Shown: positions 27,520 to 53,609, counted from the stretch's first letter. The stretch is DNA of 64,000 nt from an uncultured Candidatus Saccharibacteria bacterium (GCA_964462215.1 CAYWVZ010000002.1:2880-66879); one strand, 5' to 3'. Numbers and translations are program-made. Notes: generated by a model from the sequence alone, not told the origin.

Positions 27520-29325
27520 TTACAATTTGTAGAATTCGGCGGCGTCTAGGTAGGCAGTGATGCCGGAGCCAGGTACCGTAATGATTTGCAATCGCACTTT
27601 AGTAACCTGGCTAGAGGTCGGCTGATAACCATAAGATACCAGACGACTGCCAAGTTCGGTTAAACCGCCTTTGTACTGCCCGGATATCCAGTTGCCGTTG
27701 GCATCGTATTCATCAATGTAGAAGCCGATTTCATCGCCCGCGCGGCTGGTTACCGTAAAGTGGTTGTTCCACGAGTATGACTGGCCGTGCTGGACGTCAA
27801 CTAGCGGTGAAAAGAAGTGGCCATTACCGCCGGATCGTGGAGCTGTCAGTTTTACCCTGCCCTGTCCGTCAACTTGTTCAGATACAATATTATTGGCATC
27901 ATCGGTTGTCCAGCCGCCCTCAAAACCATTGTCGAATGAACTGCCCAAGATTAGGACAGCCTCCGGCTTGGGCGGCTCGACTGGGTCGGTCGGCTCAATT
28001 GGTGCATCGACAGATGTGACCGGGAACCATTGCGGATTATCGAAGTAGGCCACGACCTGGCTGTTAGCGGCAGCTATGACCTGCAAGCTGGCCGTTGCCA
28101 CGTTGTTGCTGGAAGGCGTGTAGGTAAAATTCACGCTTTCGGCAAAGACTTCCCACTCGCCAATTTTGTATTGGCCGGATATCCAGTTGCCGTTGGCGTC
28201 GTATTCGTCAATGTAAAAGCCGATTTCGTCACGGGCGATAGATTCGATATTCAAGAAGCTCTTGAGCAGGTATTCGGTGCCGGCATTGACCGGTACTTTT
28301 GGTGAGAACAGATGGGCGTTAGAGGTTGTGGTAGAAACCAGTTTAACGGCATTTTGAGCATCAGGGTAGCTGCCGCGGTTACCGCTGTCGGCCGTGATAA
28401 CGTCGGGTCGGTCGGTTGTCCAGCCATCGCTGATGCCGTTATTGAACGTGCTGTTCGGCAGCAAGTTAGTGTCGCTGGCTGCCAACGCGTCGCTAATGTT
28501 TACCCCTTTGATGCCACGTTGTTTAGCGTAGGCGGCAATTTCATTCAAGGTAGCTTTGCTATATTCGTAATCAGCGATCTGGCCGTCCGGTACATCGCGA
28601 ATATCGTGGAATACCAACACCAGCCATTGGCCGTTTTGGGCAGCCGTGTCGATGTACTGCTTGACCGTGTCGGCACTAACGCCGGCTTGGACCTGCTGCA
28701 CCCGTAGTAAGTAGTCGCTGTAAGGCCAGGTATTGTAGCCGGTATCGGCAAAGCCGCGGTGAGAAGTATAGTGCTTGGCCACCTCTGCCAAAACGGCCGG
28801 GCTGTAGTCACCGAATGGGCTGGCAAAAGCCTTGGCGTCAATTCCATGGGCTGCCAGGTCAGCCTTGCTCTGTGCCAGTTCCCAGGCAATTTGTTCCTGG
28901 GTCAGCATGGCGGGCTGGTCTTGGGCGTCGGTAGAAGCCATGTAGGGATGGGTTACGGTATGCGAGCCGATTTCCCAACCGTAGGTGTCCTTTAGCTCAA
29001 CAACCTGGGCCCAGGTCAGGTACGGAGCGCTCGTGTCGCGGCATTGGGTTCCTTCAATGCAGCCGGTGTTAACATAATTTACACCAGTGTAGCCGTGTTG
29101 GGCCAGAACCGGCGCGGCATGTTCTAGGGAGCTGGCGTAACCGTCGTCAAAGGTAAAAGAGATTTTGGCGTCGCTTGACAGCGTAATATCGTCGGGGGCA
29201 GCCACAACATGGTAAAAGCCGACAAAAACAGCTACAGCCACCACAGCTGTCAGTGATAGCTTAGCGATTATGCCCTTAAATCCGCGCTTCTTCCTCACTT
29301 TTGCAGCTTGCCGCTTTCTGCCCAC
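27520..29325 (-). CDS. Polysaccharide deacetylase (NodB/CE4 domain) with two tandem C-terminal repeat domains of about 160 aa, probably carbohydrate-binding. It has an N-terminal membrane anchor.
   Basis: FTFDDGYASS NodB motif. Repeated DEIGFYIDEYDANGNWISGQYK blocks. Confidence 0.8.
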   Translation of the reverse strand: MGRKRQAAKVRKKRGFKGIIAKLSLTAVVAVAVFVGFYHVVAAPDDITLSSDAKISFTFDDGYASSLEHAAPVLAQHGYTGVNYVNTGCIEGTQCRDTSAPYLTWAQVVELKDTYGWEIGSHTVTHPYMASTDAQDQPAMLTQEQIAWELAQSKADLAAHGIDAKAFASPFGDYSPAVLAEVAKHYTSHRGFADTGYNTWPYSDYLLRVQQVQAGVSADTVKQYIDTAAQNGQWLVLVFHDIRDVPDGQIADYEYSKATLNEIAAYAKQRGIKGVNISDALAASDTNLLPNSTFNNGISDGWTTDRPDVITADSGNRGSYPDAQNAVKLVSTTTSNAHLFSPKVPVNAGTEYLLKSFLNIESIARDEIGFYIDEYDANGNWISGQYKIGEWEVFAESVNFTYTPSSNNVATASLQVIAAANSQVVAYFDNPQWFPVTSVDAPIEPTDPVEPPKPEAVLILGSSFDNGFEGGWTTDDANNIVSEQVDGQGRVKLTAPRSGGNGHFFSPLVDVQHGQSYSWNNHFTVTSRAGDEIGFYIDEYDANGNWISGQYKGGLTELGSRLVSYGYQPTSSQVTKVRLQIITVPGSGITAYLDAAEFYKL

Positions 29326-29476: not shown

Positions 29477-29659
29477 ATGTCCGGTGGCGGTGGAGTCTTC
29501 TTAAGTATCGCAACCATAGTGGTCGGCGTCGTGTCATTACCGAACGCCAGTTCAAATATTTTGTTAACCTGCCTTTCGGCATTGTGCGCGGTCGCTGGCG
29601 CACTGATTCTTATTACAACCCTGGTACGGTTCGTTGCTAAGAAGTTTTATCGAATGTAG
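29477..29659 (+). CDS. Small two-TM membrane protein (60 aa) immediately upstream of the GT2 synthase. Possible IcaD/PgaD-like accessory subunit.
   Basis: Hydrophobic ORF. The position is the only functional evidence. Confidence 0.35.
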   Translation: MSGGGGVFLSIATIVVGVVSLPNASSNILLTCLSALCAVAGALILITTLVRFVAKKFYRM

Positions 29660-29674
29660 TCCCTAGATAATCAA

Positions 29675-30946
29675 GTGGAAGATGTCTTATTTTATCTGTT
29701 GGTCACCGTTGGGTTTATTAACCTGGTCCACTTCGGCTTGTACTTGGTTGGTGCCAATATCTACGATATCCAGCAGTTCCGCCGGCAAGCCCGGCAAACT
29801 AAAGGGGAGCAGGAAAGAGCCCTGGTAACAGTACTGGTACCCGCCCATAACGAAGAGTTAAGTATTATCCGTTGCCTGGATTCTATCCGCAAGAGCACTT
29901 ATCGCAAACTGCAAATCCTGGTAGTCGACGATGCCTCGACCGACCGCACCGGCCAACTGGTACGCTGGTATATTGCCGCCCACCCTTACCGTAATATTGA
30001 GTTGTTGAGGCTGCCGAAAAATCTGGGCAAGGCTGCTGCGCTAAACTATGCCCTAAGTCATGCTACCAGGGGCGAGTTCACGATGACCCTGGATGCCGAC
30101 TCAATCTTGGGTAAAGAAGCTGTGGCTAACGCCATGGCTTACTTCCGCGACCCGACGGTGGTAGGAGTAGCTGCCAACGTACGAGTTATGCACCAGCGCT
30201 CGGCGCTCGGCTTGCTGCAGCGTTTCGAGCACATGATCGGTTACCGTTCCAAAAAACTGTACACCCTGATCAACAGCGAGTTCATCGTCGGCGGCGTAGC
30301 CTCCACCTACCGCTACGAAACGCTGCAGCGACTAGGTTGGTATGACACCGACACGCAGACCGAAGACATCGGCTTGAGTCTCAAGATTAGCGCCAGCGGC
30401 AACCGCGCTAACAAATTGGTGTATGCCGCCGACGTGGTCGCCATGACCGAGGGTGTACAAACTTTCAAGGCATTGTTCCGCCAACGTTACCGCTGGAAAT
30501 TAGGTATGATGCAAAACCTGTTCAAGTACCGCCAAATATTCTTGAGCACCAAACCCATCTACAGCCGCAGCCTGACATTTTACCGCATCCCCATGGCTGT
30601 TCTGGGCGAGTTCATCCTGCTGCTGGAGCCGATTATCCTAGGCTACGTTATCTACCTCAGCATTAGCCACCACCAACCGGGCTTTATTATCGGTGCCTAC
30701 ATTACTATTATGCTGTACTTGGTTTGGACTGTCTGGCACGACGAGCACTTGGGTCTTTGGGGTCGTTTGTCGTTATCGATGTACATGCCGCTGATGTACT
30801 TTATTTTCTATATTATGAACATCGTACAGTTCGTGGCGGTTATCCGCTGTTTGCTTAGCCCTAACCGTATGATGCTCAAAACCCGCAGTGAGGGTACCTG
30901 GGTATCGCCCAAACGCAGCGGCAGCCCGGCCGAAGCTAAAATCTAA
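29675..30946 (+). CDS. Family 2 glycosyltransferase, processive membrane-embedded polysaccharide synthase (PgaC/IcaA/cellulose-synthase-like).
   Basis: VLVPAHNEE...DDASTD...DADS...QRYRW (Q-x-x-R-W) and C-terminal TM helices. Confidence 0.85.
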   Translation: MEDVLFYLLVTVGFINLVHFGLYLVGANIYDIQQFRRQARQTKGEQERALVTVLVPAHNEELSIIRCLDSIRKSTYRKLQILVVDDASTDRTGQLVRWYIAAHPYRNIELLRLPKNLGKAAALNYALSHATRGEFTMTLDADSILGKEAVANAMAYFRDPTVVGVAANVRVMHQRSALGLLQRFEHMIGYRSKKLYTLINSEFIVGGVASTYRYETLQRLGWYDTDTQTEDIGLSLKISASGNRANKLVYAADVVAMTEGVQTFKALFRQRYRWKLGMMQNLFKYRQIFLSTKPIYSRSLTFYRIPMAVLGEFILLLEPIILGYVIYLSISHHQPGFIIGAYITIMLYLVWTVWHDEHLGLWGRLSLSMYMPLMYFIFYIMNIVQFVAVIRCLLSPNRMMLKTRSEGTWVSPKRSGSPAEAKI

Positions 30947-30963
30947 ATTAACAAATATGTGCT

Positions 30964-31041
30964 TGGGGCGAGTGATGGGGATTGAACCCACTACCTCCGG
31001 AACCACAACCCGGCGCTCTAACCAAATGAGCTACACTCGCC
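30964..31041 (-). tRNA. tRNA-His (anticodon GTG) with encoded G-1 and 3' CCA.
   Basis: Reverse complement GGCGAGTGTAGCTCATTTGGTTAGAGCGCCGGGTTGTGGTTCCGGAGGTAGTGGGTTCAATCCCCATCACTCGCCCCA. Confidence 0.8.
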
Positions 31042-31091
31042 GTAAACAGGGGTGATTATACCCTAGGGCGACACAAAAAACAACGGCTATC

Positions 31092-31655
31092 TTAGGCTGT
31101 GATGTCGAGTTGTTGCTGTGGCCGTCTGATTTCGACGACACATTCGCCGGCGGTGCCAGCGTGGCCATCAATAGAAAACCCGGCGCTTAGATCACAATCA
31201 ATTCTGGGGCAAAAATTACCGGCACTGTACTTATCGGCATGCCCCGAGCACGTGTCCATAATGGCTTTGTATAATGTTCGCCGCTCTTCACGATCTTTGG
31301 AGTCATCGCCGGATTCTTCGAACTTCTCTTTCAAACAATAGTCTGATGCTACACATTCGCCGGTTACAGTCCTGCCAGTTTTTATATCATCAATGACAGA
31401 TACGGCACAGTTTCCGATGGTGCAAAGCATTTTGGCACGTGTGGGTGACCAACCCTCCATCGGCCAGCTATTCTTGGTGTCATACGTCTTGAGATCCTCT
31501 AGTATATCTACCTGCTTTTGCTCCAAGGCGACGTCCTCAACCTCTGCGCCCAAAACTCCCATCAAGCAAATACGATCACCATCTTTTCGGCCGCTAAGCC
31601 TATTGGACTCGAACCTCTTCAGACTCTTTTCAGTTGCCGACTCATTCATACTCAC
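31092..31655 (-). CDS. Cysteine-rich hypothetical protein (187 aa), possibly a degenerate YfcE/calcineurin-like phosphoesterase fold.
   Basis: GNCA, DTCSGHADKY and IDGHAGTAGE segments loosely resemble the GNCD / THGH / GHTH motifs. The first metal-binding motif is absent. Confidence 0.35.
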   Translation of the reverse strand: MSMNESATEKSLKRFESNRLSGRKDGDRICLMGVLGAEVEDVALEQKQVDILEDLKTYDTKNSWPMEGWSPTRAKMLCTIGNCAVSVIDDIKTGRTVTGECVASDYCLKEKFEESGDDSKDREERRTLYKAIMDTCSGHADKYSAGNFCPRIDCDLSAGFSIDGHAGTAGECVVEIRRPQQQLDITA

Positions 31656-31723
31656 TCACAGATACTAGACGGCCGCCTTAGTTATTGCAAGCACTAGCGT
31701 GATAAGGAGTTGTGTGTTTGGTG

Positions 31724-31800
31724 TGGCGCCCCGGGAGGGATTCGAACCCCCGACCTTGAGCTTAGAAGTCTCCTGCTCTATCCAACTGAGCTACCAGGGC
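31724..31800 (-). tRNA. tRNA-Arg (anticodon TCT), with an atypical anticodon stem.
   Basis: Reverse complement GCCCTGGTAGCTCAGTTGGATAGAGCAGGAGACTTCTAAGCTCAAGGTCGGGGGTTCGAATCCCTCCCGGGGCGCCA. Acceptor, D and T arms are clean. The anticodon stem has only 3 Watson-Crick pairs, flanked by purine-purine mismatches. Confidence 0.6.
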
Positions 31801-31851
31801 ACGCCGATACCACCGGATATGGTACTAGGGTTGATTATAGCGAAAAACTGT

Positions 31852-32097
31852 TCAGCGTACGAATCTGACCTTGACCTTGGGTGCCGCTTTTTCTGCCCAA
31901 TCCTGCAACCGCCCGACTTGATCGCCCATAGCCAGCTGTTCATGCTCATATGTTTCTTGGCGCTTAACTAGTGGGTCGAGTAAGCCGATTATCCTGTCGA
32001 GATCAGCTTTATCGGCCTTGGTTTCTAAGACTTTTTCGATGTGATCAAAACGCACGTTCATGTGCTTGAAAAGTCTTGTGAATTCATCGCCGCTCAT
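31852..32097 (-). CDS. Hypothetical 81-aa charged/helical protein.
   Basis: ORF between two tRNAs. Confidence 0.3.
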   Translation of the reverse strand: MSGDEFTRLFKHMNVRFDHIEKVLETKADKADLDRIIGLLDPLVKRQETYEHEQLAMGDQVGRLQDWAEKAAPKVKVRFVR

Positions 32098-32176
32098 GGC
32101 TTCATTCTAACAAGCCGGGTGGCTGAAGGTCTAGAAACTTAAGGGGAATTTAATAGTTTTATTTGCAACGATTGTG

Positions 32177-32251
32177 TGGTGCGGGATACCGGAGTCGAAC
32201 CGGTGTCCTCAGTTTGGAAAACTGATATATTAACCGCTATACGAATCCCGC
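32177..32251 (-). tRNA. tRNA-Trp (anticodon CCA).
   Basis: Reverse complement GCGGGATTCGTATAGCGGTTAATATATCAGTTTTCCAAAACTGAGGACACCGGTTCGACTCCGGTATCCCGCACCA. Confidence 0.85.
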
Positions 32252-32280: not shown

Positions 32281-34707
32281 TTACTGTCGATCGCTGAGGA
32301 TCTGCTCCAGTTCCGGCGCGTCGAGCTGCAGCGTTTGGCCGGGCATGATGCTGTCACCGAGCAAACGTTGCGCCACCACATTTTCGACCGAGCGCTGCAC
32401 CGTGCGGCGCAGCGGCCGCGCGCCCAGGCGCGGGTCGTAGCCTTTGTTGACCAACAACTCTTTGGCCGCCGGCGTCAGCTCAACGCTTATCTTGCGCGCG
32501 GCCAGCGTCTTATTAACACCGGCCATCAGCAAGTCAACCACCTGCAATAACTCTTCTTTGGTGAGCGGACGGAACAGGATAATCTCGTCAAAGCGGTTCA
32601 AAAATTCTGGGCGGAAGATATTGGCGTTAATCAGCTCGTTGACAAACTCTTCTTCGAATTGTTCCAGCTGCTCGCCCCGTTCGATGTGCGCACGGATACG
32701 GTCGGCGCCAGCGTTGCTGGTGGCGATAATAATAGCGTCGCGGAAACTAATTGGTTTGTTTTTGGCATCACGTAACATGCCTTCGTCGAGCATTTGCAGC
32801 AGCAGGTTCAGCACGTTCGGGTGGGCTTTTTCGATTTCATCAAGCAGCACCACGCTAAAAGGTTGTTTGGCAATCTGCGCACACAAACTATACGGGTCGA
32901 TGGCACCGACGGCCAGCAGCCGGTTGGTGTCGTCGGCGTGCGAATATTCGTTGAGGTCAATCCGCACAATCCGGTTTTCGCCGCCAAAGTACACATCCGC
33001 CAAGGCTTTTGACAGTTCGGTTTTACCAACGCCGGTTGGCCCCAAGAACAGGAACGTGCCGATCGGCTTGTTCTCGTTTCGTACGCCGGTGCGAGCCCGG
33101 CGCAGGGCATCGCTGACCAGCTTAACGGCACGGGTCTGGTTGATCATTCGCTCGTGAATGCGCGCCTCCAGGTTAAGCAAGGTGTCTTTATCTTCCGCTG
33201 TGCTGGCAGTCTGGACTTTGATATCAAACGACTTTTCGACAGCTTGCTGTACCGACCGAGCGGTTACAAAGTGCTCTTCTTCAGGGAAGCCGGCCGCCGC
33301 TTCAAGTAATTTGATAGCTTTACCCGGAAAGGCCTGTTCATGGATAAACCGTTCAGCCAGCTTGTAGGCCTCTTTGATAGCTTGGTGCATCAACACCACC
33401 TGATGTTTGCCCTCGATCAGCAAGGTTTGGTCTTCGATAACCTGCACGGTCTCGTCGAAATCCAAAGGGCTGACCACTACACGGTTGAGCGGCTGGACCA
33501 AGCCGGGGTTAGTTTGGCTTAGCCGTAGCCACTCCTGGTCGTCCAAGGCTAAGATAACCTTAAGGGCGCCGCCCTCCAACACCGGCAGCAAAATGTTCGA
33601 CAGGTCGACCGAGCCGGTGCCGTCACGCAAAAACAGTTGGGCTTCGTCCAAAAAGACGATGACATTTTTAGCAGCAATCGCTTCGTTAAATATATGGATT
33701 AGCAACTCTTCCAGCTGGCCGCGGCCTTTGGCGTTGGCAATCAGGTGGGCGGCATCTAGTTCAATCACTTGTTGGTAACGCAGCGATGCCGGTACGTTTT
33801 TTGGTTCTTCTAGAAGCTTTTGGGCAATGGCATACACTAGACTAGTCTTGCCCACCCCGACCTCGCCCACCAGCGCCGCATTACGCCGGCCGGGCTGGCC
33901 CAATAAGTGCACCACTTGGTCAATGACCGGCAAGCGGCTGGCCACCGGCCGCCACAGCAGGCCGCCGCGCTGGATAGTGTCGGTCATGTTGTGGCCGACG
34001 TGGTTCAGCAGCGGTGCCCAGCCAAAGCTCAAGTCCCGCCCGATGCCGCCGTTACCATGCCGCTCCGCAAAACGTTCGCGCGTCTGTTGAATGTGGTGCC
34101 ACCAGCCAACACCAGCGATAATATCGTCACTGTCCAACTGGAACTGGGCTAGCACCATGTCTCGGTTGGGGATAGTAAAGATGAGCGCGGCCACCAGCAC
34201 GGCCGAATCCACCTGCCGGCTGCCGGTGTGGGCGGCAATATCTAAGGCCTGTTGCCAAACAACCGGCGTCTGGGAGGTTTCCGCCGAAGCGGTAGTCTGC
34301 AAAAAGTCCGAACCAAGGGCAAAGCGGGCTCCGAAGAAGTAGGCGCCCTGTTCGTGCTCGACCAGCTTGGCCAGGTCTTTGGGCAACATGTCTTTATGTA
34401 GTTTGGCCAGCAGGTGACGACTCAAAACGGCACTCATGTCGGTGGCTGCGGTAATCTCTTGGGTTGGCGGCAAACCCTTTAGTTCTCCGTAATACCAAAA
34501 CAGCACTAATGCTACTACACCAGCTACCACCAACAGCAGGTGAGCCAGCATCTGGTGCTCGATAAACGCGCCCCAAACCCAACCGGTCAACGAAGCTACA
34601 ACCAACAACCAGCCCAGCCAGCGCATGGCCTTGCTGTCGAACAAACGGGCAAACCGGGCTTTGGCAGCCCGCGGGCTATTGAGGTGCAAGGTTAGGCCAT
34701 CGTTCAT
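32281..34707 (-). CDS. Membrane-anchored Clp/Hsp100-family double-AAA+ ATPase. Architecture: 2 TM, a Clp_N-like repeat, D1, a short linker, D2. No long M-domain and no IGF/IGL ClpP-docking loop were seen.
   Basis: D1 Walker A GEVGVGKTS / B VIVFLDEAQ. D2 Walker A GPTGVGKTE / B VVLLDEIEKAHP. Sensor GARPLRR. N-terminal hydrophobic helices WLGWLLVVASLTGWVWGAF and LLLVVAGVVALVLFWYY. Start at 34707 (MNDGLT) with AGGAGT RBS. Confidence 0.8.
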   Translation of the reverse strand: MNDGLTLHLNSPRAAKARFARLFDSKAMRWLGWLLVVASLTGWVWGAFIEHQMLAHLLLVVAGVVALVLFWYYGELKGLPPTQEITAATDMSAVLSRHLLAKLHKDMLPKDLAKLVEHEQGAYFFGARFALGSDFLQTTASAETSQTPVVWQQALDIAAHTGSRQVDSAVLVAALIFTIPNRDMVLAQFQLDSDDIIAGVGWWHHIQQTRERFAERHGNGGIGRDLSFGWAPLLNHVGHNMTDTIQRGGLLWRPVASRLPVIDQVVHLLGQPGRRNAALVGEVGVGKTSLVYAIAQKLLEEPKNVPASLRYQQVIELDAAHLIANAKGRGQLEELLIHIFNEAIAAKNVIVFLDEAQLFLRDGTGSVDLSNILLPVLEGGALKVILALDDQEWLRLSQTNPGLVQPLNRVVVSPLDFDETVQVIEDQTLLIEGKHQVVLMHQAIKEAYKLAERFIHEQAFPGKAIKLLEAAAGFPEEEHFVTARSVQQAVEKSFDIKVQTASTAEDKDTLLNLEARIHERMINQTRAVKLVSDALRRARTGVRNENKPIGTFLFLGPTGVGKTELSKALADVYFGGENRIVRIDLNEYSHADDTNRLLAVGAIDPYSLCAQIAKQPFSVVLLDEIEKAHPNVLNLLLQMLDEGMLRDAKNKPISFRDAIIIATSNAGADRIRAHIERGEQLEQFEEEFVNELINANIFRPEFLNRFDEIILFRPLTKEELLQVVDLLMAGVNKTLAARKISVELTPAAKELLVNKGYDPRLGARPLRRTVQRSVENVVAQRLLGDSIMPGQTLQLDAPELEQILSDRQ

Positions 34708-35078
34708 CGCCCGACTCCTATCGCCATCAGGATTAAGGCAACCGGCAAAGCTAGAGGAATCAACGGCCACAACACTACAAAGATAACACCGGTAACCAAT
34801 ACGAAGAGGCTGCAAACCAAGCCGGCTATAATGATAAAACTGCGGGCGAAGAAGCCGACGAAGCGCGAGACCAGGTTATCGATAAACGTCCGCATGCGCA
34901 TATCAAGTGAACCGCGGCCCTGGCTTTGGGTCTGCTTAAACGGCGCGAATAGTGTTCGCAATAACGCTCCCATCGAAAAGGTTTCGTTGCACCACAGCAA
35001 GCGCTGCCCCAGGCCGCGCTTGAGCGCCCATTGCCAGCCAGCACCATACCACCAGCGTAAGCATAACCATATCACCAT
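34704..35078 (-). CDS. Small membrane protein (124 aa), translationally coupled (ATGA overlap) to the Clp-like ATPase.
   Basis: C-terminal TM pair IIIAGLVCSLFVLVTGVIFVVLWPLIPLALPVALILMAIG. Confidence 0.4.
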   Translation of the reverse strand: MVIWLCLRWWYGAGWQWALKRGLGQRLLWCNETFSMGALLRTLFAPFKQTQSQGRGSLDMRMRTFIDNLVSRFVGFFARSFIIIAGLVCSLFVLVTGVIFVVLWPLIPLALPVALILMAIGVGR

Positions 35079-35171
35079 AAGCAGTATTGTATCAGACTAT
35101 CTCTGTTATACGGAATGGTGGAAATCAGTGGCGCCAGCGAGGTATAATAAGTGGTACATAAAGGAGGTACC

Positions 35172-35594
35172 ATGGATACAACAGATTACGGCCAACAGCC
35201 ATATGTAGTAAACATTGAAGAACTAACTAAACAGAATGACAATTTCCGGGTAGCCAAGTGGACTGGGAAGAACTTGCAAATGACCGTCATGTCGATTGAG
35301 GTCGGCGGTGAGGTCGGGCTGGAAGTTCACGATGACCACGACCAGTTCCTGCGCATCGAAGCCGGCGAAGCCAAGGTGGTCATGGGCCCCGCCGAAGACA
35401 ATCTCACTTTCGAGAAAGAGGCCGAGGATGACTTTGCCATTTTTGTTCCGGCCGGTACCTGGCACAACATTATTAACGTTGGCAACGAGCCGCTCAAGCT
35501 CTACTCGATCTACGCACCAGCCGAACACGCCAAAGGAACTATCCACAAGACCTACGAAGAAGCCATGGCGGCCGAAGCCGAACACCACAGCTAA
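35172..35594 (+). CDS. Cupin-domain protein.
   Basis: Two-His cupin motifs GLEVHDDHDQFL...GTWHNIINVGNEP. Strong GGAGG RBS. Confidence 0.65.
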   Translation: MDTTDYGQQPYVVNIEELTKQNDNFRVAKWTGKNLQMTVMSIEVGGEVGLEVHDDHDQFLRIEAGEAKVVMGPAEDNLTFEKEAEDDFAIFVPAGTWHNIINVGNEPLKLYSIYAPAEHAKGTIHKTYEEAMAAEAEHHS

Positions 35595-35634
35595 CGCGTG
35601 GCATCGTAACTACCTTTAGGCTAGAATAAAGCAT

Positions 35635-37515
35635 ATGCGTTCTTTCTTTGTTGTTGTTGCCCGCTTTGTCAAAAATTATGGCTGGCTGAACGGCGCCCTG
35701 GCGGTAGCTGTGGTAGCAGCTGTCTTGTCATTGACCGGCAAGGCTGGTTTGGCGCAGTGGATCTTGGCTATCGGCACAACCGTTTGTGCCCTGCCGATTG
35801 TCTGGGATATTATCCAATCTATCCGGTACGGCAAGTACGGAGTAGATATTTTAGCGCTTACCGCCGTGGTGGCCTCTGTTCTGTTGCGGCAGTACTGGGC
35901 CGGCATCATTATTGTGATAATGTTTCTGGGCGGCAGAGCGTTAGAAGATTACGCTCAGCGGCGAGCCAAAGCCGAATTGACCGACTTGCTGAAGCGGGCA
36001 CCAAAGAAGGCCCGGCTGCTCAAGGGCGGTAAAACCGTCGATATTTTGGCCAGTGCCGTTAAAGTCCGCGACAAATTATTAATTAAGCCGGGCGAACTGA
36101 TACCGGTAGATGCGGTTATTGTGGACGGCGAAGCCAGTATTGACGAATCCAGCCTGACCGGCGAAAGCCTGCCGGTCGAGAAAAAGGCCGGCGACGAGCT
36201 GCTGAGCGGCTCGGTGAACTTAGACGGTGTCTTGACGGTCAAGGCCCTGCGGGTCGCCGCCGACAGCCAGTACGAACAGATTATCAAGTTGGTCCGTAAC
36301 GCTACCTCGCACCAGTCGCCGTTTGTACGCCTGGCCGACCGCTACAGTATTCCTTTTACAATTACCGCGTACGTTATTGCCGTCAGTGTATGGATTGTAT
36401 CGGGTGACCCGATGCGCTTTTTGGAAGTCATCGTGGTAGCCACGCCATGTCCGCTATTGCTGGCTGCGCCTATTGCACTGGTTTCCGGTATGAGCCGGGC
36501 AGCCAGACACGGGATTATTGTCAAGAGCGGTTCGGCTTTGGAAAAGCTGGCCGAGACCCACACCATGGCCTTTGATAAAACCGGCACCTTGACTATGGGA
36601 AAGCCGGTGGTTGGTGGCATCAAGACGTTTAACGATTTTTCTAAAGACGAGGTGCTGGCTTTAGCGGCCAGTGTAGAGCAGAACTCCAACCATACACTGG
36701 CACGAACCATGGTGGCAGCTGCGGCCGGCCGGGAACTGAAGTTAATAAAAGTCAAAGACGTCCGTGAGCAGGCCGGCTCCGGCGTCAGCGGCACCGTCAA
36801 GCACCGCCGCGTATTAGTTGGCAACGCCACCTTGCTGGCCGGAGCCGGCGTCAGCCTGCCGGCACGCGTCAGCCGGGCCGCAGCTGCCACCACAGCCCTC
36901 ATTGCCATTGACGGAAAACTGGCTGGAGCCATCCATTTTAGCGACGAACCGCGCCCCGAAAGCAAAGCTACACTGCGACGCCTTAAAGAGCTTGGCATCC
37001 GCCATATCTTAATGATTACCGGCGACAATAAAGCTAGCGCCCAAATAATCGCCAAGAAGGTCGGCATTACGGAAGTCCAGGCCGACTGCCTGCCGGCCGA
37101 TAAACTTCACGCTGTCGAGGATATCAAGCACCGGCCGGTGGCCTTTGTTGGGGACGGCGTCAACGACGCGCCGGTCCTGACTACCGCCGACGTCGGCATC
37201 GCCCTGGGCGCCAAGGGTTCGGCGGCCGCCAGCGAATCGGCCGACGTCGTTATTATGCTCGACGACCTTGGCCACGTCGCCACAGCCGTAGACATTGCCA
37301 AGCGCACTTTCTTCATTGCCAAGCAAAGTATTTTCGTCGGCATTTTTATAAGCCTGGGCCTGATGCTCGTTTTTGCCACCGGCCGTTTCTCGCCGGTTTC
37401 CGGCGCCTTGATCCAAGAGCTCGTGGACGTTATTGTTATCGTCAACGCGCTGCGTGCGCTTGGCTCATGGCATAAACGACAGCCGGTAAACAGCGCCGCC
37501 GAGGCCGCTGCCTAA
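35635..37515 (+). CDS. P1B-type heavy-metal translocating P-type ATPase. No N-terminal metal-binding domain. The TM6 motif is CPL.
   Basis: DKTGTLT, TGES, GDGVNDAP, and TPCPLLLAAP in TM6. Confidence 0.85.
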   Translation: MRSFFVVVARFVKNYGWLNGALAVAVVAAVLSLTGKAGLAQWILAIGTTVCALPIVWDIIQSIRYGKYGVDILALTAVVASVLLRQYWAGIIIVIMFLGGRALEDYAQRRAKAELTDLLKRAPKKARLLKGGKTVDILASAVKVRDKLLIKPGELIPVDAVIVDGEASIDESSLTGESLPVEKKAGDELLSGSVNLDGVLTVKALRVAADSQYEQIIKLVRNATSHQSPFVRLADRYSIPFTITAYVIAVSVWIVSGDPMRFLEVIVVATPCPLLLAAPIALVSGMSRAARHGIIVKSGSALEKLAETHTMAFDKTGTLTMGKPVVGGIKTFNDFSKDEVLALAASVEQNSNHTLARTMVAAAAGRELKLIKVKDVREQAGSGVSGTVKHRRVLVGNATLLAGAGVSLPARVSRAAAATTALIAIDGKLAGAIHFSDEPRPESKATLRRLKELGIRHILMITGDNKASAQIIAKKVGITEVQADCLPADKLHAVEDIKHRPVAFVGDGVNDAPVLTTADVGIALGAKGSAAASESADVVIMLDDLGHVATAVDIAKRTFFIAKQSIFVGIFISLGLMLVFATGRFSPVSGALIQELVDVIVIVNALRALGSWHKRQPVNSAAEAAA

Positions 37516-37538: not shown

Positions 37539-38186
37539 CTAGCTAATATGCGCCACTTGCAGAATGGCAATCACTAAAATCGGTACGAAGATATTATCGG
37601 TGCCGGCGATAGCTACGTTTTCAACCAGAGTGGCAGCCAGCGGCAGCCATATCAGCAGCGGCAATAGCGGCCAGCTTAGGCCGTTGTGACTTAACAGCAC
37701 CGTTCCTAAAATAATGCCGGTTGATATCGCTAAAAACGTCGTCGTACCGGCCAGCGTCTTGGTGTAGTTGCGGATACTGTAACGGTGATGCTTACCGTAC
37801 CGGCCGCTGCCGACTACCGCTGCAAAGCCGTCGGCCAATGATAAATGCAAAATAGCCGCTGTAAAGATTAGCGGCGGCGGCGCAATCAGTGCGCTAACAC
37901 CGATGCCGATCGGAAAGAACAGCTCCCCCCATGTTTTACGCGTGACGCCATGCACAGCCCGAAAGATATTCTTTTGCCGCGACAGCAGTACCACCGCGAT
38001 AAAGGCCAGGCTCATCAGCTGGATCTGCCGCCAACTCAAAAAAAATGGCCAAAAGGCCACGAATGTTCCAACACTGATATGGATAAACTTGCGGGCCGTT
38101 TCGCCGCGCATACGTTTGGTGTGCCACAACACCTCGGCGACAGCCAACAAGACAAAGACCACAGCAACAGCTATGAGCAGATTCAT
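37539..38186 (-). CDS. Polytopic membrane protein of the CTP-transferase / dolichol-kinase-like superfamily. Tentative.
   Basis: ADGFAAVVGSGRYGKHH resembles the CdsA / phytol-kinase active-site segment. Start trimmed to 38186 to avoid overlapping the tRNA. Confidence 0.45.
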   Translation of the reverse strand: MNLLIAVAVVFVLLAVAEVLWHTKRMRGETARKFIHISVGTFVAFWPFFLSWRQIQLMSLAFIAVVLLSRQKNIFRAVHGVTRKTWGELFFPIGIGVSALIAPPPLIFTAAILHLSLADGFAAVVGSGRYGKHHRYSIRNYTKTLAGTTTFLAISTGIILGTVLLSHNGLSWPLLPLLIWLPLAATLVENVAIAGTDNIFVPILVIAILQVAHIS

Positions 38187-38227
38187 GACCCTATTGTACG
38201 CCACTTTTGTTGATGATACATGGTAAA

Positions 38228-38303
38228 TGGTCAGGGTGAGAGGACTTGAACCTCCGACCTCAGCGTCCCGAACGCTGCGCGCTACCAACTGCGCCACACC
38301 CTG
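38228..38303 (-). tRNA. tRNA-Pro (anticodon CGG).
   Basis: Reverse complement CAGGGTGTGGCGCAGTTGGTAGCGCGCAGCGTTCGGGACGCTGAGGTCGGAGGTTCAAGTCCTCTCACCCTGACCA. Confidence 0.85.
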
Positions 38304-38336
38304 ATATTCCTATTTTAGCAAACTTCAGGTATACAC

Positions 38337-38960
38337 CTAACAGGCGCACAGAAACTGTCGATCCCACATAAGATAGGGGATATATTTGTCATCGTCTGAC
38401 TGGATATCGCTATTTAGGGCCTGCCGGATGCTTTTAGCAAACGCCGCCCTACCCTTGGCTACCGCCTCTTTGGCAGAATGCCCCTTGCTGAGCGCACCGA
38501 TAATCTGGTTTGACGGCTCTAAGAATAATGCTGCGGTGCTGTCCTCGGTGGGGTGAGTGGTTTTGCCGGGTTGCGACACCAGGATAAAATCTTCTGAATA
38601 GCCCACGTAGCCTTTAGCGCCGGCTTTAACCGCCTGTACGCCAAGGTTCTGTGCCGATTTACATGATAAAGCGTAGACCATGGCATCTTTCAGGATTTTG
38701 GCCGACTTAAAGTCGACCAATACTCTGTGGTCATGTCCGGCAACGCTATTTTCGTTGCCATGGCCATTAATGAAGATTACTTCTGGTTTCATTTTTTGGA
38801 CAAGGCTTTGAAACTTTTGCTTATTAACATTGGTTTCTTTGAGGGTGTATACTTCGTGTCCGCGGCTTTTTGCCTGCTCGATGAAAGTGCTGGCCCACGC
38901 CGTCAGGTAGCGGGTCATACGGTCATAGTCCGGACAGGTCACCAGTACGCTACTCTGCAT
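38337..38960 (-). CDS. Hypothetical 207-aa protein with a putative clan-CD (caspase/gingipain-like) His-Gly ... Ser-Cys dyad.
   Basis: Hydrophobic strand plus GHG (EVIFINGHGNE, His67) and hydrophobic strand plus SC (MVYALSCKSA, Cys100). The 33-residue spacing is as in gingipain. Confidence 0.35.
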   Translation of the reverse strand: MQSSVLVTCPDYDRMTRYLTAWASTFIEQAKSRGHEVYTLKETNVNKQKFQSLVQKMKPEVIFINGHGNENSVAGHDHRVLVDFKSAKILKDAMVYALSCKSAQNLGVQAVKAGAKGYVGYSEDFILVSQPGKTTHPTEDSTAALFLEPSNQIIGALSKGHSAKEAVAKGRAAFAKSIRQALNSDIQSDDDKYIPYLMWDRQFLCAC

Positions 38961-52881: not shown

Positions 52882-53567
52882 CGTAGTCCCCCGGCTTGCT
52901 GGCCAACAATAATACCGTCCTGGACTGTGATAATCCTATTGGTCTGCAATGCCAGATTAAGATCGTGGGTAACCATGATGATAGTCACCCCCTGGGCATG
53001 CAGATACTGGAGGGTCTGCATGATAGCTTGACCAGTTTGAGTATCAAGATTACCAGTTGGTTCGTCGGCTAGTAGTAGCCGTGGATTATTGGCAAGGGCA
53101 CGGGCAATAGCTACCCTCTGCATTTGTCCGCCCGAAAGTTCATTTGGCTTATTTTTTAGTTTATCGCCCAGACCAACCATTTGTAGCAAGGCTTCGGCAC
53201 GCGGTCTGCGAGCCGATTTTCTGGAATGTGCATATATCATTGGTAGCTCAACATTCTCCAAAGCACTTAAGCCACCAATCAGGTTGAAGTTCTGGAATAT
53301 GAATCCCATATGCATTAGCCGGAGTTCAGCGAGGTGAGAATCGTGGGTATAATTAACCGGAGCGTCTTCCAACGCATAAGTCCCAGCCGAAGGTTCGTCA
53401 AGTAAACCAATGATGTTCATGAGCGTTGTCTTACCCGAACCGCTTGGACCGGTTATAGCAATAAATTCGCCCGGCTCAACAGCCAATGAAATCCCCTTTA
53501 GGACAGGAGTTTCCGCTGCACCTTCCCCTAGCGTCTTATAGACCCCATTTACTGCTATAATACTCAT
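52878..53567 (-). CDS. ABC transporter ATP-binding protein (MacB/LolD-like).
   Basis: GPSGSGKTTL, LSGGQMQRVAIARAL, LLADEPTGNLD. Confidence 0.9.
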   Translation of the reverse strand: MSIIAVNGVYKTLGEGAAETPVLKGISLAVEPGEFIAITGPSGSGKTTLMNIIGLLDEPSAGTYALEDAPVNYTHDSHLAELRLMHMGFIFQNFNLIGGLSALENVELPMIYAHSRKSARRPRAEALLQMVGLGDKLKNKPNELSGGQMQRVAIARALANNPRLLLADEPTGNLDTQTGQAIMQTLQYLHAQGVTIIMVTHDLNLALQTNRIITVQDGIIVGQQAGGLR

Positions 53568-53609
53568 GCTTATTACTTAGCATACAGAGATGCTGCTATA
53601 AAAACCAGG

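What the first reader, a model, noticed from the sequence alone, without database searches (positions are those of the whole stretch)
32281..35078. Membrane-anchored double-ring Clp/Hsp100-like AAA+ unfoldase translationally coupled to a small membrane protein
- The 808-aa protein has two complete AAA+ modules with Walker A/B motifs and an arginine sensor GARPLRR. It has a Clp_N-like helical repeat.
- Unlike ClpB/ClpC/ClpA, it begins with two transmembrane helices.
- It has only a short D1-D2 linker and no long coiled-coil M-domain.
- No IGF/IGL ClpP-docking tripeptide is visible in D2.
- Its start overlaps (ATGA) the stop of an upstream 124-aa protein that ends in two TM helices.
- A membrane-tethered, ClpP-independent Hsp100 paired with a dedicated small membrane partner is not a standard annotated architecture.
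- It could be a membrane-protein extraction or quality-control machine, or an envelope/secretion-associated disaggregase.
- It lies immediately next to the tRNA micro-islet.
Basis: partly seen in the sequence, partly recalled or inferred. Interest (0 to 1): 0.6.

Follow-up and report, generated by a model that had tools for sequence, protein, structure and literature searches.

The report
Membrane-anchored Clp-like ATPase with small partner
This is a two-gene module found across Saccharibacteria: a small membrane protein coupled to a membrane-anchored, ClpP-independent relative of the Clp/Hsp100 chaperones that has lost the substrate-gripping tyrosines, so databases that call it "ClpC" are probably wrong about how it works.

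Summary
On the minus strand, a 124-aa membrane protein gene (35078-34704) overlaps by ATGA an 808-aa double-AAA+ gene (34707-32281).

**Architecture of the large protein**
- Basic N-tail, TM hairpin, divergent Clp_N-like domain, D1, then D2 with the ClpB D2-small domain.
- No M-domain and no ClpP-docking loop.

**New findings**
- The organism is a Saccharibacterium.
- The pair is conserved: in 80/80 species genomes examined, the large ORF starts -16 to +3 nt from the small gene's stop.
- Natural fusions exist in which the small protein's hairpin replaces the ATPase's own.
- D2 is catalytically intact, but its GYVG pore loop is 5 residues shorter and has no conserved aromatic.
- D1 lacks the pore-loop Tyr. 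Across the family its Walker B Glu and Arg fingers are not conserved.
- Southlakia epibionticum appears to carry this pair (SEML1_0700/0701, both Tn-seq NE/NE/GD) beside a canonical ClpC and ClpP.

**Reading**
It is most likely a dedicated, D2-driven membrane AAA+ machine with an obligate small subunit. It is not ClpC or ClpB, and in most members probably not a classical threading unfoldase. Its substrate is unknown. I rate it a new variant of a known kind, interest about 0.6.

The parts
34704..35078 (-). Small partner gene (124 aa). It has a basic, Trp-rich cytoplasmic N-region and a C-terminal TM hairpin. It belongs to a family of 'hypothetical proteins' of about 120 aa.
   Evidence: ORF. 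No hit in Pfam, NCBIfam or PADLOC. At least 2496 relatives at 90% clustering. AF2 pLDDT 89. No PDB fold match.
35034..35054 (-). Invariant WWYGxGW motif of the small protein (residues 9-15).
   Evidence: W9, W10, Y11, G14 and W15 are invariant in 51 sequences.
34929..34979 (-). Conserved FS..L.RTLFAP(F/W)KQ motif of the small protein (residues 34-50). It runs from the end of the helical part into a loop.
   Evidence: S35, T42 and P46 are invariant; F34, L39 and F44 are nearly so. AF2 loop 42-57. This peptide pattern was used for the genome scan.
34713..34841 (-). TM hairpin of the small protein (residues about 80-122), with an invariant WPxxP turn (W104, P105, P108).
   Evidence: Hydropathy 2.83. 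Conservation. The turn is uncharged and the N-region has net charge +6.
34704..34707 (-). ATGA start/stop overlap (translational coupling). GGAG lies at 34715-34718.
   Evidence: Sequence. In 80/80 genomes the large ORF starts -16..+3 nt from the small gene's stop, and in 43 the overlap is 4 nt.
32281..34707 (-). Membrane-anchored Clp/Hsp100-derived double AAA+ ATPase (808 aa plus stop).
34627..34707 (-). Basic cytoplasmic N-tail (residues 1-27) with the conserved S-x-R-A-x-K-A-R motif.
   Evidence: Conservation. Mean 5.2 K+R and net +3.5. AF2 helix 12-22.
34489..34620 (-). N-terminal TM hairpin (TM1 about 30-49, three-residue loop, TM2 about 53-73, conserved W71).
   Evidence: In fusion P0369 the partner's hairpin replaces it.
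34063..34455 (-). Divergent Clp_N-like helical domain (residues about 85-215).
   Evidence: Not found by Pfam. Profile hits to ClpA, Hsp104 and ClpB NTDs at E = 0.008-0.03. Foldseek top hits are almost only Clp N-domains, probability up to 0.99, TM-score 0.44-0.51.
34000..34053 (-). Family-specific GGIGRD(W/L)xxG(Y/W)(T/A)PxL motif between the N-domain and D1 (residues 219-236). It is the most conserved stretch of the N-terminal half.
   Evidence: mean column identity 0.72.
33178..33921 (-). D1 AAA+ module plus lid (residues 263-510). In this protein Walker A (GEVGVGKT, 33844-33867) and Walker B (DE) are intact, but the pore loop is KGRG (33712-33738), with no Tyr, and sensor-1 and the Arg fingers are not conserved. 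D1 is degenerate across the family.
   Evidence: Walker B Glu in 23/77 members, pore-loop aromatic in 2/77.
32572..33072 (-). D2 AAA+ module (residues 546-712), catalytically intact. Walker A GPTGVGKT (33019-33042), Walker B LLDEIE, sensor-1 TSN and Arg finger in FLNRFDE.
   Evidence: Walker A identical in 76/77.
32890..32916 (-). Shortened D2 pore loop (residues 598-606, LAVGAIDPY). The canonical (G/S)PPGY is deleted. The family consensus is acidic, [LI]-A-D-G-A-x-[DE]-P-x.
   Evidence: Alignment to ClpC. Family alignments.
32632..32709 (-). Region where ClpA, ClpC and ClpX carry the ClpP-docking IGL/VGF/IGF loop (residues 667-692). Here it has ClpB-like length and no such tripeptide.
   Evidence: Alignment to T. 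thermophilus ClpB has only a 2-residue gap. 0/77 members have [ILMV]G[FLM] here.
32323..32571 (-). ClpB_D2-small domain (residues 713-795), including sensor-2 GARPLRR (32404-32424).

Best explanation
**What it is.** The two genes encode the subunits of a Saccharibacteria-wide membrane AAA+ machine. It derives from the class-I Clp/Hsp100 family but is no longer ClpA, ClpB or ClpC.

**Shown**
- The large subunit has a basic cytoplasmic tail, a TM hairpin, a divergent Clp_N-like domain, a conserved GGIGRD linker motif, D1 and D2.
- It lacks an M-domain and a ClpP-docking loop.
- D2 keeps every catalytic motif. D1 is degenerate across the family and has no pore-loop aromatic.
- The D2 GYVG loop is replaced by a shorter, acidic, poorly conserved loop.
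- The small gene always sits directly upstream with overlapping or abutting start and stop codons.
- In some lineages the two are fused in one polypeptide.

**Inferred**
- The small protein is a stoichiometric subunit. Its TM hairpin packs with the ATPase's hairpin, and its basic Trp-rich cytoplasmic domain sits next to the N-domain. A hexamer would then carry about 24 TM helices under a double ring on the cytoplasmic face.
- D1 serves as a nucleotide-binding scaffold, and D2 alone hydrolyses ATP.
- Output does not go to ClpP, and there is no DnaK-coupled disaggregation.
- ATP-driven movements of D2 are used to remodel or release a membrane-associated client, or the membrane part of the complex itself.
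- In most members this happens without classical Tyr-mediated hand-over-hand threading.

The client is unknown. The module is accessory rather than essential under laboratory co-culture.
For: **Architecture**
- Domain content.
- TM hairpin: hydropathy, AF2 helices and charge bias.
- Clp_N-like fold.

**Motif census**
- D2 Walker A identical in 76/77; Walker B and sensor-2 conserved.
- D1 Walker B Glu in 23/77.
- D1 pore aromatic in 2/77.
- D2 pore loop is 9 residues instead of 14 in 71/77, with an aromatic in only 19/77.
- IGF-like motif in 0/77.

**Partner**
- 6 loci found by protein look-up and 80/80 species genomes show gene coupling.
- Pairwise identities of the two proteins correlate at r = 0.83.
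- Fusions: P0344 (an uninterrupted ORF in L090), and P0346/P0369, in which the ATPase's own hairpin is replaced.
- The module is also present, unannotated, in a distant clade (L089, ORF 288-695 overlapping the ATPase start).

**A separate paralogue.** Southlakia epibionticum has a canonical ClpC (SEML1_0512, double Clp-N plus UVR) and ClpP (SEML1_0493). It also has SEML1_0700/0701, with the Pfam coordinates and gene arrangement of this module. Both are called NE, NE, GD in Tn-seq (PMC10633639 Tables S1/S2).

**Precedent.** Clp-related membrane-associated ATPases without aromatic pore loops are known: the Torsins (PMC5425593).
Against: - There is no direct evidence that the two proteins bind.
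- No substrate or biochemical activity is known.
- The window's own clade has a Tyr (DPY, 19/77) in the shortened D2 loop that might still grip substrate.
- Distant relatives P0344 and P0368 keep canonical-like aromatic D2 loops (GGPGF, GSPAGY). The ancestral machine therefore probably threaded, and threading may persist.
- The semi-conserved acidic loop shows some constraint, so the loop is not functionless.
- TM topology rests on hydropathy and the positive-inside rule only.
- Membership of SEML1_0700/0701 is inferred from table entries, not from sequence.
Confidence: 0.55

Rival explanations
1. It is a genuine threading unfoldase or extractase at the membrane. A hexamer would pull membrane or membrane-proximal proteins through its axial channel for quality control, like FtsH without a protease domain or like Msp1. 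The small protein would act as adaptor or substrate-entry subunit, and the divergent loops would still grip substrate.
For: - It descends from Clp/Hsp100, D2 is fully active, and a Clp_N-like substrate/adaptor domain is retained.
- Distant members keep aromatic D2 loops.
- The window's clade has Tyr606 in the shortened loop.
- The mild fitness defect fits a quality-control role.
Against: - The canonical D2 pore-loop Tyr is deleted, and 58/77 members have no aromatic in the loop.
- The D1 pore loop has no aromatic in 75/77.
- The loop is among the least conserved parts of D2: 0.49 against 0.67-0.83 in its flanks.
- Aromatic pore loops are described as conserved and critical for processive unfolding in Clp/HSP100 (PMC5425593).
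Confidence: 0.25
2. It is a motor of a translocation or secretion device, comparable to PTEX HSP101-EXP2. The 24-helix TM assembly would form a conduit, and the AAA+ ring would feed or extract macromolecules across the membrane of the epibiont.
For: - The TM hairpins of both subunits are conserved, with an invariant WPxxP turn.
- The module is restricted to a lineage with an epibiotic lifestyle.
- The Hsp101 N-domain is among the fold hits.
Against: - Feeding a pore needs threading loops, and these are lost.
- The periplasmic loops are only about 3-7 residues.
- No secretion genes are conserved nearby.
- The Tn-seq phenotype is mild, unlike the essential T4SS and T4P genes of the same organism (table, PMC10633639).
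Confidence: 0.08
3. It is an ordinary ClpC/ClpB-type chaperone, as annotated in databases, working with ClpP or DnaK. The N-terminal hydrophobic segments would be incidental.
For: [quoted passage not shown] The best PDB sequence hits are ClpB and ClpC.
Against: - All NCBIfam equivalog scores are far below their cut-offs: ClpB 427 vs 1232, ClpA 369 vs 993.
- There is no M-domain, no ClpP loop and no Pfam Clp_N.
- The pore-loop tyrosines are missing.
- A true ClpC and ClpP coexist with what appears to be this paralogue in S. epibionticum.
Confidence: 0.02
4. It is an anti-phage defence or mobile-element cargo pair: a Clp-like ATPase plus a membrane effector.
For: PADLOC models DolB and PDC-M37B match the D2 region (E = 8e-31 and 5e-26). 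A small membrane protein could be an abortive-infection effector.
Against: - The hits cover only the generic D2 region, and the small protein matches nothing.
- The pair was found in at least 518 species genomes of one class, in the variable, ordinary housekeeping neighbourhoods seen at the six loci inspected. That pattern fits a vertically inherited gene pair, not an island.
- The identities of the two proteins co-vary across the genomes.
Confidence: 0.02
5. The small protein is not a subunit. It would be the dedicated substrate or regulated target of the ATPase, for example a membrane factor that is extracted or inactivated on demand.
For: Its cytoplasmic domain is basic (net +6) and the D2 loop consensus is acidic. 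The conserved loop motif FAP(F/W)KQ could be a recognition tag.
Against: Translational coupling in 80/80 genomes implies co-synthesis at a fixed ratio. Stable natural fusions, in which the small protein's hairpin serves as the ATPase's only anchor, point to a permanent structural partnership.
Confidence: 0.06

Closest known systems
ClpB (Hsp100 disaggregase)
   Same: - Two AAA+ rings.
- D2 plus D2-small is most similar to ClpB: best PDB and NCBIfam hits, and a D2 region without a ClpP loop that is colinear with T. thermophilus ClpB.
   Different: - No coiled-coil M-domain.
- No pore-loop tyrosines.
- D1 degenerate.
- N-terminal TM hairpin.
- Obligate small membrane partner.
- TIGR03346 score of 427 against a cut-off of 1232.
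ClpA
   Same: N-domain, D1 and D2 are colinear without an M-domain. The alignment is a single HMMER stretch (233-796 to ClpA 168-736). The family profile's best N-domain hit is the ClpA NTD.
   Different: No IGL ClpP-docking loop, no pore-loop Tyr, membrane anchored. TIGR02639 score of 369 against a cut-off of 993.
ClpC (the database annotation)
   Same: Clp_N-like fold at the N-terminus of D1. General class-I architecture.
   Different: - About 61 residues (the UVR/M-domain) are missing.
- No VGF loop.
- Pfam Clp_N is not detected.
- A true ClpC coexists with what appears to be this paralogue in S. epibionticum.
FtsH
   Same: A bacterial AAA+ hexamer anchored by two N-terminal TM helices per protomer, with the ATPase on the cytoplasmic face.
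   Different: FtsH has one AAA ring, a periplasmic domain between its TM helices, an aromatic pore loop and a fused M41 protease. None of these is present here (no HExxH).
Torsin with LAP1/LULL1 (eukaryotic ER and nuclear envelope)
   Same: A Clp/HSP100-related ATPase that lacks aromatic pore loops, is membrane-associated through an N-terminal hydrophobic segment, and works with membrane-protein cofactors (PMC5425593).
   Different: Torsin has a single ring, lacks its own Arg finger (the cofactor supplies it) and is luminal. Here the D2 Arg finger and sensor-2 are intact, there are two rings, and the small partner has no AAA-like fold.
PTEX HSP101-EXP2, Msp1/ATAD1 and Bcs1 (membrane-associated AAA+ translocases or extractases)
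   Same: AAA+ rings operating at a membrane. HSP101 is a class-I Hsp100 docked on a membrane pore.
   Different: - From established knowledge: HSP101 and Msp1 use aromatic pore loops.
- HSP101 itself has no TM helices.
- Msp1 and Bcs1 have a single ring with one TM helix.

Membership tests
Clp/Hsp100 class I (double-ring AAA+) | Two AAA+ modules (D1 AAA, D2 AAA_2) plus a C-terminal D2-small domain. | tested here: met
   Pfam AAA 7.6e-19, AAA_lid_9 5.8e-9, AAA_2 4.9e-45, ClpB_D2-small 6.1e-23.
Clp/Hsp100 class I (double-ring AAA+) | Conserved aromatic (Tyr) pore loops: KYRG in D1 and GYVG in D2. | tested here: not met
   D1 has KGRG. In D2, (S/A)PPGY is deleted. Family census: D1 aromatic in 2/77, D2 aromatic in 19/77.
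Clp/Hsp100 class I (double-ring AAA+) | N-terminal double Clp_N repeat. | tested here: inconclusive
   Pfam Clp_N is not detected. The profile hits the second repeat of ClpA, ClpB and Hsp104 NTDs at E = 0.008-0.03. Foldseek top hits are all Clp NTDs, but with E = 0.1-2 and TM-score 0.44-0.51.
ClpB | Long coiled-coil M-domain inserted in the D1 small domain. | tested here: not met
   ClpB, ClpK, ClpG and ClpV models match in two separate stretches, whereas ClpA matches in one. No sequence is left between the lid (to 508) and D2 (from about 515).
ClpB | Score at or above the NCBIfam equivalog cut-off (TIGR03346). | tested here: not met
   426.7 bits against a cut-off of 1232.1.
ClpC | UVR-type half M-domain between D1 and D2. 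| tested here: not met
   The alignment offset to B. subtilis ClpC changes by about 61 residues between D1 and D2.
ClpA/ClpC/ClpX (ClpP partners) | Hydrophobic-Gly-hydrophobic (IGL/VGF/IGF) ClpP-docking loop in the last AAA+ module. | tested here: not met
   The region 667-692 aligns to ClpB with a 2-residue gap. 0/77 members carry [ILMV]G[FLM] there.
ClpA/ClpC/ClpX (ClpP partners) | clpP in the genome or nearby. | tested here: inconclusive
   There is no ClpP Ser-motif ORF in the 64-kb window. A Saccharibacterium does encode ClpP elsewhere (SEML1_0493). The rest of this genome was not available.
ClpA | Score at or above the NCBIfam equivalog cut-off (TIGR02639). | tested here: not met
   368.9 bits against a cut-off of 993.15.
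ClpV (T6SS TssH) | Equivalog score and a T6SS gene neighbourhood. | tested here: not met
   302 bits against a cut-off of 885. Neighbours are cupin, P-type ATPase, GT2 and tRNAs.
ClpK/ClpG | Score at or above the NCBIfam cut-off (1900). | tested here: not met
   335 and 325 bits.
FtsH | Single AAA module fused to an M41 zinc protease (HExxH). | tested here: not met
   No Peptidase_M41 hit. No HExGH in long ORFs of the window.
Torsin-like | Missing Arg finger, which is supplied by a cofactor. | tested here: not met
   The D2 FLNRFDE Arg and sensor-2 GARPxRR are conserved.
Dodola (DolB) and PDC-M37 defence ATPases | Full-length match plus the cognate partner gene. | tested here: not met
   The match covers only residues 447-675 (D2). 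The small protein has no PADLOC hit.
The new TM-Clp plus small-partner module (as defined here) | Small WWYGxGW / FAP(F/W)KQ / WPxxP protein encoded immediately upstream of, or fused to, a TM-anchored ATPase carrying the GGIGRD motif. | tested here: met
   Window. 80/80 genome loci. L001-L008. L089. Fusions.

The most novel reading that the evidence does not exclude
The module is a bacterial, Torsin-like non-threading Hsp100.
- The D2 ring, with short acidic loops instead of GYVG, does not translocate polypeptides.
- Instead it cyclically grips and moves the basic cytoplasmic elements of its own membrane base: the R-A-x-K-A-R tail and the Trp/Arg-rich domain of the small subunit.
- This would drive conformational changes in a 24-helix membrane assembly, acting as an ATP-powered gate or membrane/envelope remodeller specific to the epibiotic Saccharibacteria.
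- That would be a new mode of action for the Clp/Hsp100 family and a new kind of membrane machine.
Probability: 0.18. Interest if true: 0.8.

Novelty: new variant of a known kind. Interest (0 to 1): 0.6.

Why it matters
- **For AAA+ biology.** Clp/Hsp100 proteins are the textbook threading motors. This family has lost both pore-loop tyrosines, the M-domain and the ClpP loop, while keeping a fully active D2 and being anchored in the membrane with an obligate small partner. It is a natural experiment on what else this scaffold can do.
- **For Saccharibacteria.** These are ultrasmall epibionts of the candidate phyla radiation with very reduced genomes. Keeping a 930-codon module in addition to ClpC and ClpP implies a lineage-specific need at the membrane.
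[quoted passage not shown] Both families deserve their own models.
- **For testing.** The apparent orthologous pair (SEML1_0700/0701) lies in a genetically tractable organism, tolerates insertions and shows a matching late growth defect. The hypothesis can therefore be tested directly.

Tried and rejected
**Calls that failed or gave nothing**
- The look-up of encoding contigs for the window protein itself: not on record.
- The search for related loci with the N-domain alignment: no stretch conserved enough. The small-protein alignment was used instead.
- Promoter and terminator scan: no excess over shuffles, uninformative.

**Attempts to model the complex**
- Mixed unpaired alignments were badly misaligned by MAFFT, so they were not submitted.

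**Searches without informative hits**
- Fold search of the small protein: no meaningful PDB match, best E = 2.8.
- PADLOC: only generic D2-level hits, so the defence reading was rejected.
- Literature searches for a membrane-anchored Hsp100, or for Saccharibacteria with ClpC: no description of this family.

**Readings considered and rejected**
- The longer 844-aa TTG start at 34815. Homologues start at the ATG position with the conserved tail, and the 4-nt overlap is conserved.
- The tRNA adjacency as functional. The neighbourhood is not conserved.
- The 'Limnocylindria' (L029) and 'Nomurabacteria' (L083, P0369) labels as evidence for spread outside Saccharibacteria. Their ATPases share motif signatures with loci labelled Saccharibacteria (L046 and L038-L042), and P0369's 90% cluster-mate is labelled Saccharibacteria.

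Full report
**1. What is in the window**

On the minus strand, an ORF of 124 aa (35078..34704) is followed by one of 808 aa counted from the ATG at 34707 (to 32281, stop included). The ATG of the second gene (34707-34705) overlaps the TGA of the first (34706-34704). A GGAG lies 8-11 nt upstream of that ATG. tRNA-Gly follows 29 nt downstream, then two short unannotatable ORFs interleaved with tRNA-Arg and tRNA-His.

Homologues are named Candidatus Saccharibacteria or Saccharimonadales, so the window comes from a Saccharibacterium (TM7, Patescibacteria).

**2. Anatomy of the large protein**

- **Domains.** Pfam finds D1 (AAA, 279-382), AAA_lid_9 (418-508), D2 (AAA_2, 547-709) and ClpB_D2-small (715-794). 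It finds no Clp_N.
- **Family models.** All NCBIfam Clp equivalogs score far below their cut-offs: ClpB 427/1232, ClpA 369/993, ClpV 302/885, ClpK and ClpG about 330/1900.
- **No M-domain.** ClpA aligns in a single colinear stretch (233-796 to 168-736). ClpB and ClpC align in two. Against B. subtilis ClpC the alignment offset shifts by about 61 residues between D1 and D2, which is the missing M-domain.
- **No ClpP loop.** The segment between TSNAG and FRPEFLNR aligns to T. thermophilus ClpB with only a 2-residue gap. No ClpP-docking loop is inserted.

The N-terminal 262 residues were searched exhaustively against 1.84 billion representatives. They match only about 141 clusters. Almost every match sits at the N-terminus of the hit, and the full-length hits are about 790-900 aa proteins. 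No canonical Clp protein is matched.

An AF2 model of this region is confident (pLDDT 88, residues 11-210 above 96). It shows a short helix (12-22), two helices of about 24 residues (26-49 and 53-76), and a helical domain (97-215).

- **Hydropathy.** Peaks of 1.75 and 2.6 coincide with the two long helices. They recur in every representative.
- **Charges.** The tail carries 5.2 K+R (net +3.5). The inter-helix loop is about 7 residues and uncharged. This fits an N-in hairpin that returns the chain to the cytoplasm.
- **Fold.** Foldseek against PDB returns almost only Clp N-domains: ClpC, ClpC1, ClpC2, ClpB, ClpV, Hsp101, Hsp104 and ClpA. Probability reaches 0.99, TM-score to target is 0.44-0.51, and E-values are weak at 0.1-2.
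- **Sequence profile.** A family profile finds the second Clp_N repeat of ClpA, Hsp104 and ClpB at E = 0.008-0.03.

The domain is therefore a strongly diverged Clp_N. Between it and D1 lies a family-specific motif, GGIGRD(W/L)xxG(Y/W)(T/A)PxL. It is the best conserved part of the N-terminal half.

**3. Catalytic and pore motifs**

- **D2.** In alignments of 42 diverse representatives and of 77 species-level genome copies, D2 is essentially invariant. This covers Walker A GPTGVGKT (76/77), Walker B LLDEIE, sensor-1 TSN, the Arg in FLNRFDE and sensor-2 GARPxRR.
- **D1 in this protein.** D1 has GEVGVGKT and FLDE. Where ClpC has ATT (sensor-1) and ERRF (Arg fingers), it has ALD and VQPL. Its pore loop reads KGRG instead of KYRG.
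- **D1 in the family.** The Walker B second residue is Glu in only 23/77 members (Asp 29, Asn 19). Walker A is non-canonical in 7/77. The pore loop holds an aromatic in 2/77.
- **D2 pore loop.** This was the most unexpected result. Where ClpC has RLVGSPPGYVGYDEGGQL, this protein has RLLA-----VGAIDPYSL, a five-residue deletion that removes the canonical Tyr. The loop is this short in 71/77 genomes.
- **Loop composition.** Its consensus is acidic and only semi-conserved: [LI]-A-D-G-A-x-[DE]-P-x, mean identity 0.49 against 0.67-0.83 in the flanks. An aromatic occurs only in the window's own clade (DPY, 19/77).
- **ClpP-loop region.** No member has an IGF-like tripeptide there.

Aromatic pore loops are regarded as conserved and critical for processive unfolding by Clp/HSP100 proteins (PMC5425593).

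**4. The small protein and its linkage**

The small protein matches nothing in Pfam, NCBIfam or PADLOC. It has at least 2496 relatives at 90% clustering. Those listed are about 120 aa long and are either unnamed or called 'hypothetical'.

- **Invariant residues.** They define WWYGxGW, FS..L.RT.F.P, SR..G...R and a WPxxP hairpin turn.
- **Model.** AF2 (pLDDT 89) gives three short helices, a loop carrying FAP(F/W)KQ, and a long helical hairpin. No PDB fold matches it.
- **Topology.** The N-region is strongly basic (net +6), and the hairpin turn is uncharged.

Linkage to the ATPase gene is strict.

- In six loci reached by exact-protein look-up, the small gene lies directly upstream with a 4-nt overlap, and nothing else in the neighbourhood is conserved.
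- A scan of one genome per species with a single peptide pattern found 518 genomes. Nearly all are labelled Saccharibacteria, Saccharimonadales or Saccharimonadia, and they include Nanosyncoccus and the complete TM7-H1 chromosome.
- In all 80 loci returned, a long ORF starts -16 to +3 nt from the small gene's stop. This ORF is 780-850 aa where it is complete and unbroken. The overlap is 4 nt in 43 loci and 1 nt in 9.
- Pairwise identities of the two proteins correlate at r = 0.83.
- P0344 (897 aa) is a fusion of the two proteins and is an uninterrupted ORF in L090.
- P0346 and its full-length cluster-mate P0369 (854 aa, NCBI MCB9834491.1) join the whole small protein directly to the Clp_N-like domain. 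The partner's hairpin replaces the ATPase's own.
- The distant relative P0368 keeps a GSPAGY D2 loop. An unannotated 135-aa ORF with the same motifs overlaps its start by 4 nt (L089).

The two-gene module therefore predates the pore-loop deletion. D1 is already degenerate in that clade (GKR, FIDG).

**5. Outside evidence**

Tables S1 and S2 of Wang et al. 2023 (PMC10633639) cover Southlakia epibionticum ML1.

- **Canonical Clp proteins.** The tables list ClpC (SEML1_0512: two Clp_N, UVR, D1, D2) and ClpP (SEML1_0493).
- **Candidate module.** Separately they list SEML1_0700, an 'AAA family ATPase'. Its Pfam coordinates are AAA 276-381, lid 415-471, AAA_2 544-706 and D2-small 713-792, with no Clp_N. 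Its start overlaps the 127-aa hypothetical SEML1_0701.
- **Tn-seq.** Both genes carry many insertions and receive identical calls: NE, NE, GD. Normalised reads fall from 4124 to 2517 to 1638 for SEML1_0700, and from 258 to 157 to 51 for SEML1_0701.

I infer these are orthologues from coordinates and arrangement. The sequences were not compared. The main text of the paper does not discuss them. Literature searches found no description of a TM-anchored Hsp100.

**6. Interpretation**

Shown:
- The module is a conserved, translationally coupled and sometimes fused gene pair across Saccharibacteria.
- Its ATPase is a Clp/Hsp100 derivative with a TM hairpin, a live D2 and a degenerate D1.
- It has no M-domain, no ClpP loop and no conserved pore-loop aromatics.
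- It appears to coexist with a canonical ClpC and ClpP in S. epibionticum (inferred from the published tables, section 5).

Inferred:
- The small protein is a stoichiometric membrane subunit, so a hexamer would have about 24 TM helices.
- D1 is a scaffold and D2 the only motor.
- The output is neither ClpP degradation nor DnaK-coupled disaggregation.
- In most members the work is done without classical Tyr-mediated threading, by remodelling a membrane-proximal client or the membrane base itself.

The closest functional analogy is Torsin with its membrane cofactors. Here, however, the Arg finger is intact and the partner is unrelated.

The main rival is that it still threads, as a membrane-protein extractase. 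Support for this comes from the aromatic loops of the basal clade, from Tyr606 in this clade, and from the retained Clp_N-like domain.

The readings as ordinary ClpC, secretion motor, dedicated substrate or defence system are less likely, for the reasons given under rivals.

**7. Limits**

- Taxon labels are record titles.
- The count of 518 genomes is a lower bound from one peptide pattern.
- Start codons were chosen as those nearest the stop.
- No formal phylogeny was built against reference Clp families.

**8. Verdict**

The architectural interpretation is supported, and the 'unfoldase/disaggregase' label is doubtful. This is an uncharacterised, mis-annotated variant of the Clp/Hsp100 kind, together with a new small membrane-protein family. 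It can be tested in a tractable organism. Interest is about 0.6.

Noticed in passing
window 30964-32251 (- strand): tRNA-His, tRNA-Arg(tct) and tRNA-Gly(tcc) are interleaved with two ORFs without any Pfam hit. One is 187 aa and Cys-rich (31092-31655). The other is 81 aa (31852-32097). The arrangement is not conserved next to the module in other genomes.
   Followed up: partly
window 27520-29325 (-), 29477-29659 (+), 29675-30946 (+): An envelope polysaccharide cluster. It holds a 601-aa polysaccharide deacetylase with two C-terminal internal repeats (...DEIGFYIDEYDANGNWISGQYK... occurs twice), a 60-aa hydrophobic ORF, and a family-2 glycosyltransferase with C-terminal TM segments.
   Followed up: partly
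window 35151-37515 (+): A cupin_2 protein (147 aa) followed by a 626-aa P-type (E1-E2) ATPase, transcribed divergently from the small partner gene.
   Followed up: partly
window 37539-38960 (-): Two ORFs without Pfam hits. One is a multi-TM protein of about 227 aa whose listed ORF start overlaps tRNA-Pro(cgg), so the true start is probably internal. The other is a 207-aa protein containing a GYVG tetrapeptide, unrelated to AAA+.
   Followed up: no
L089:288-695: The small partner gene is not called in this public assembly, although it overlaps the ATPase start by 4 nt. The family is likely under-annotated. SEML1_0701 is also flagged as not belonging to a 'core family' while its partner is.
   Followed up: yes
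L065:3354-5790: In this Saccharibacteria MAG the ATPase gene is split into two frames, 330 aa then 600 aa, near the D1 Walker A. This is either a pseudogene or an assembly frameshift.
   Followed up: partly
L029 (DATHJH010000042.1), L083 (JAITKW010000051.1), P0369 (MCB9834491.1): These records are labelled Limnocylindria (Chloroflexota) or Nomurabacteria. Their ATPases carry motif signatures of clades labelled Saccharibacteria (like L046 and L038-L042). This suggests binning or labelling errors rather than spread outside the class.
   Followed up: partly
L001:5069-5608, L002:4990-5571, L003:801-1382: In one subclade a VIT1-family (iron/manganese transporter-like) gene and a gene of about 213 aa of unknown function lie immediately upstream of the small partner gene. 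They are absent from the window and from the more distant loci.
   Followed up: no
L047, L029, L064 (ATPase ORFs of 832-935 aa); SEML1_0700 (860 aa): Some members carry low-complexity Pro/Gln/Ser-rich extensions at the C-terminus (L029, L064), or possibly at the N-terminus (L047, where the start codon is uncertain).
   Followed up: no
window 61321 (-), 53450-54224 (-): The only other P-loop ORFs in the window are a 370-aa ORF with GPPGLGKT and two ORFs with GPSG(A/S)GK(S/T), probably ABC-type. No clpP-like Ser motif or FtsH HExGH motif occurs in any long ORF.
   Followed up: partly
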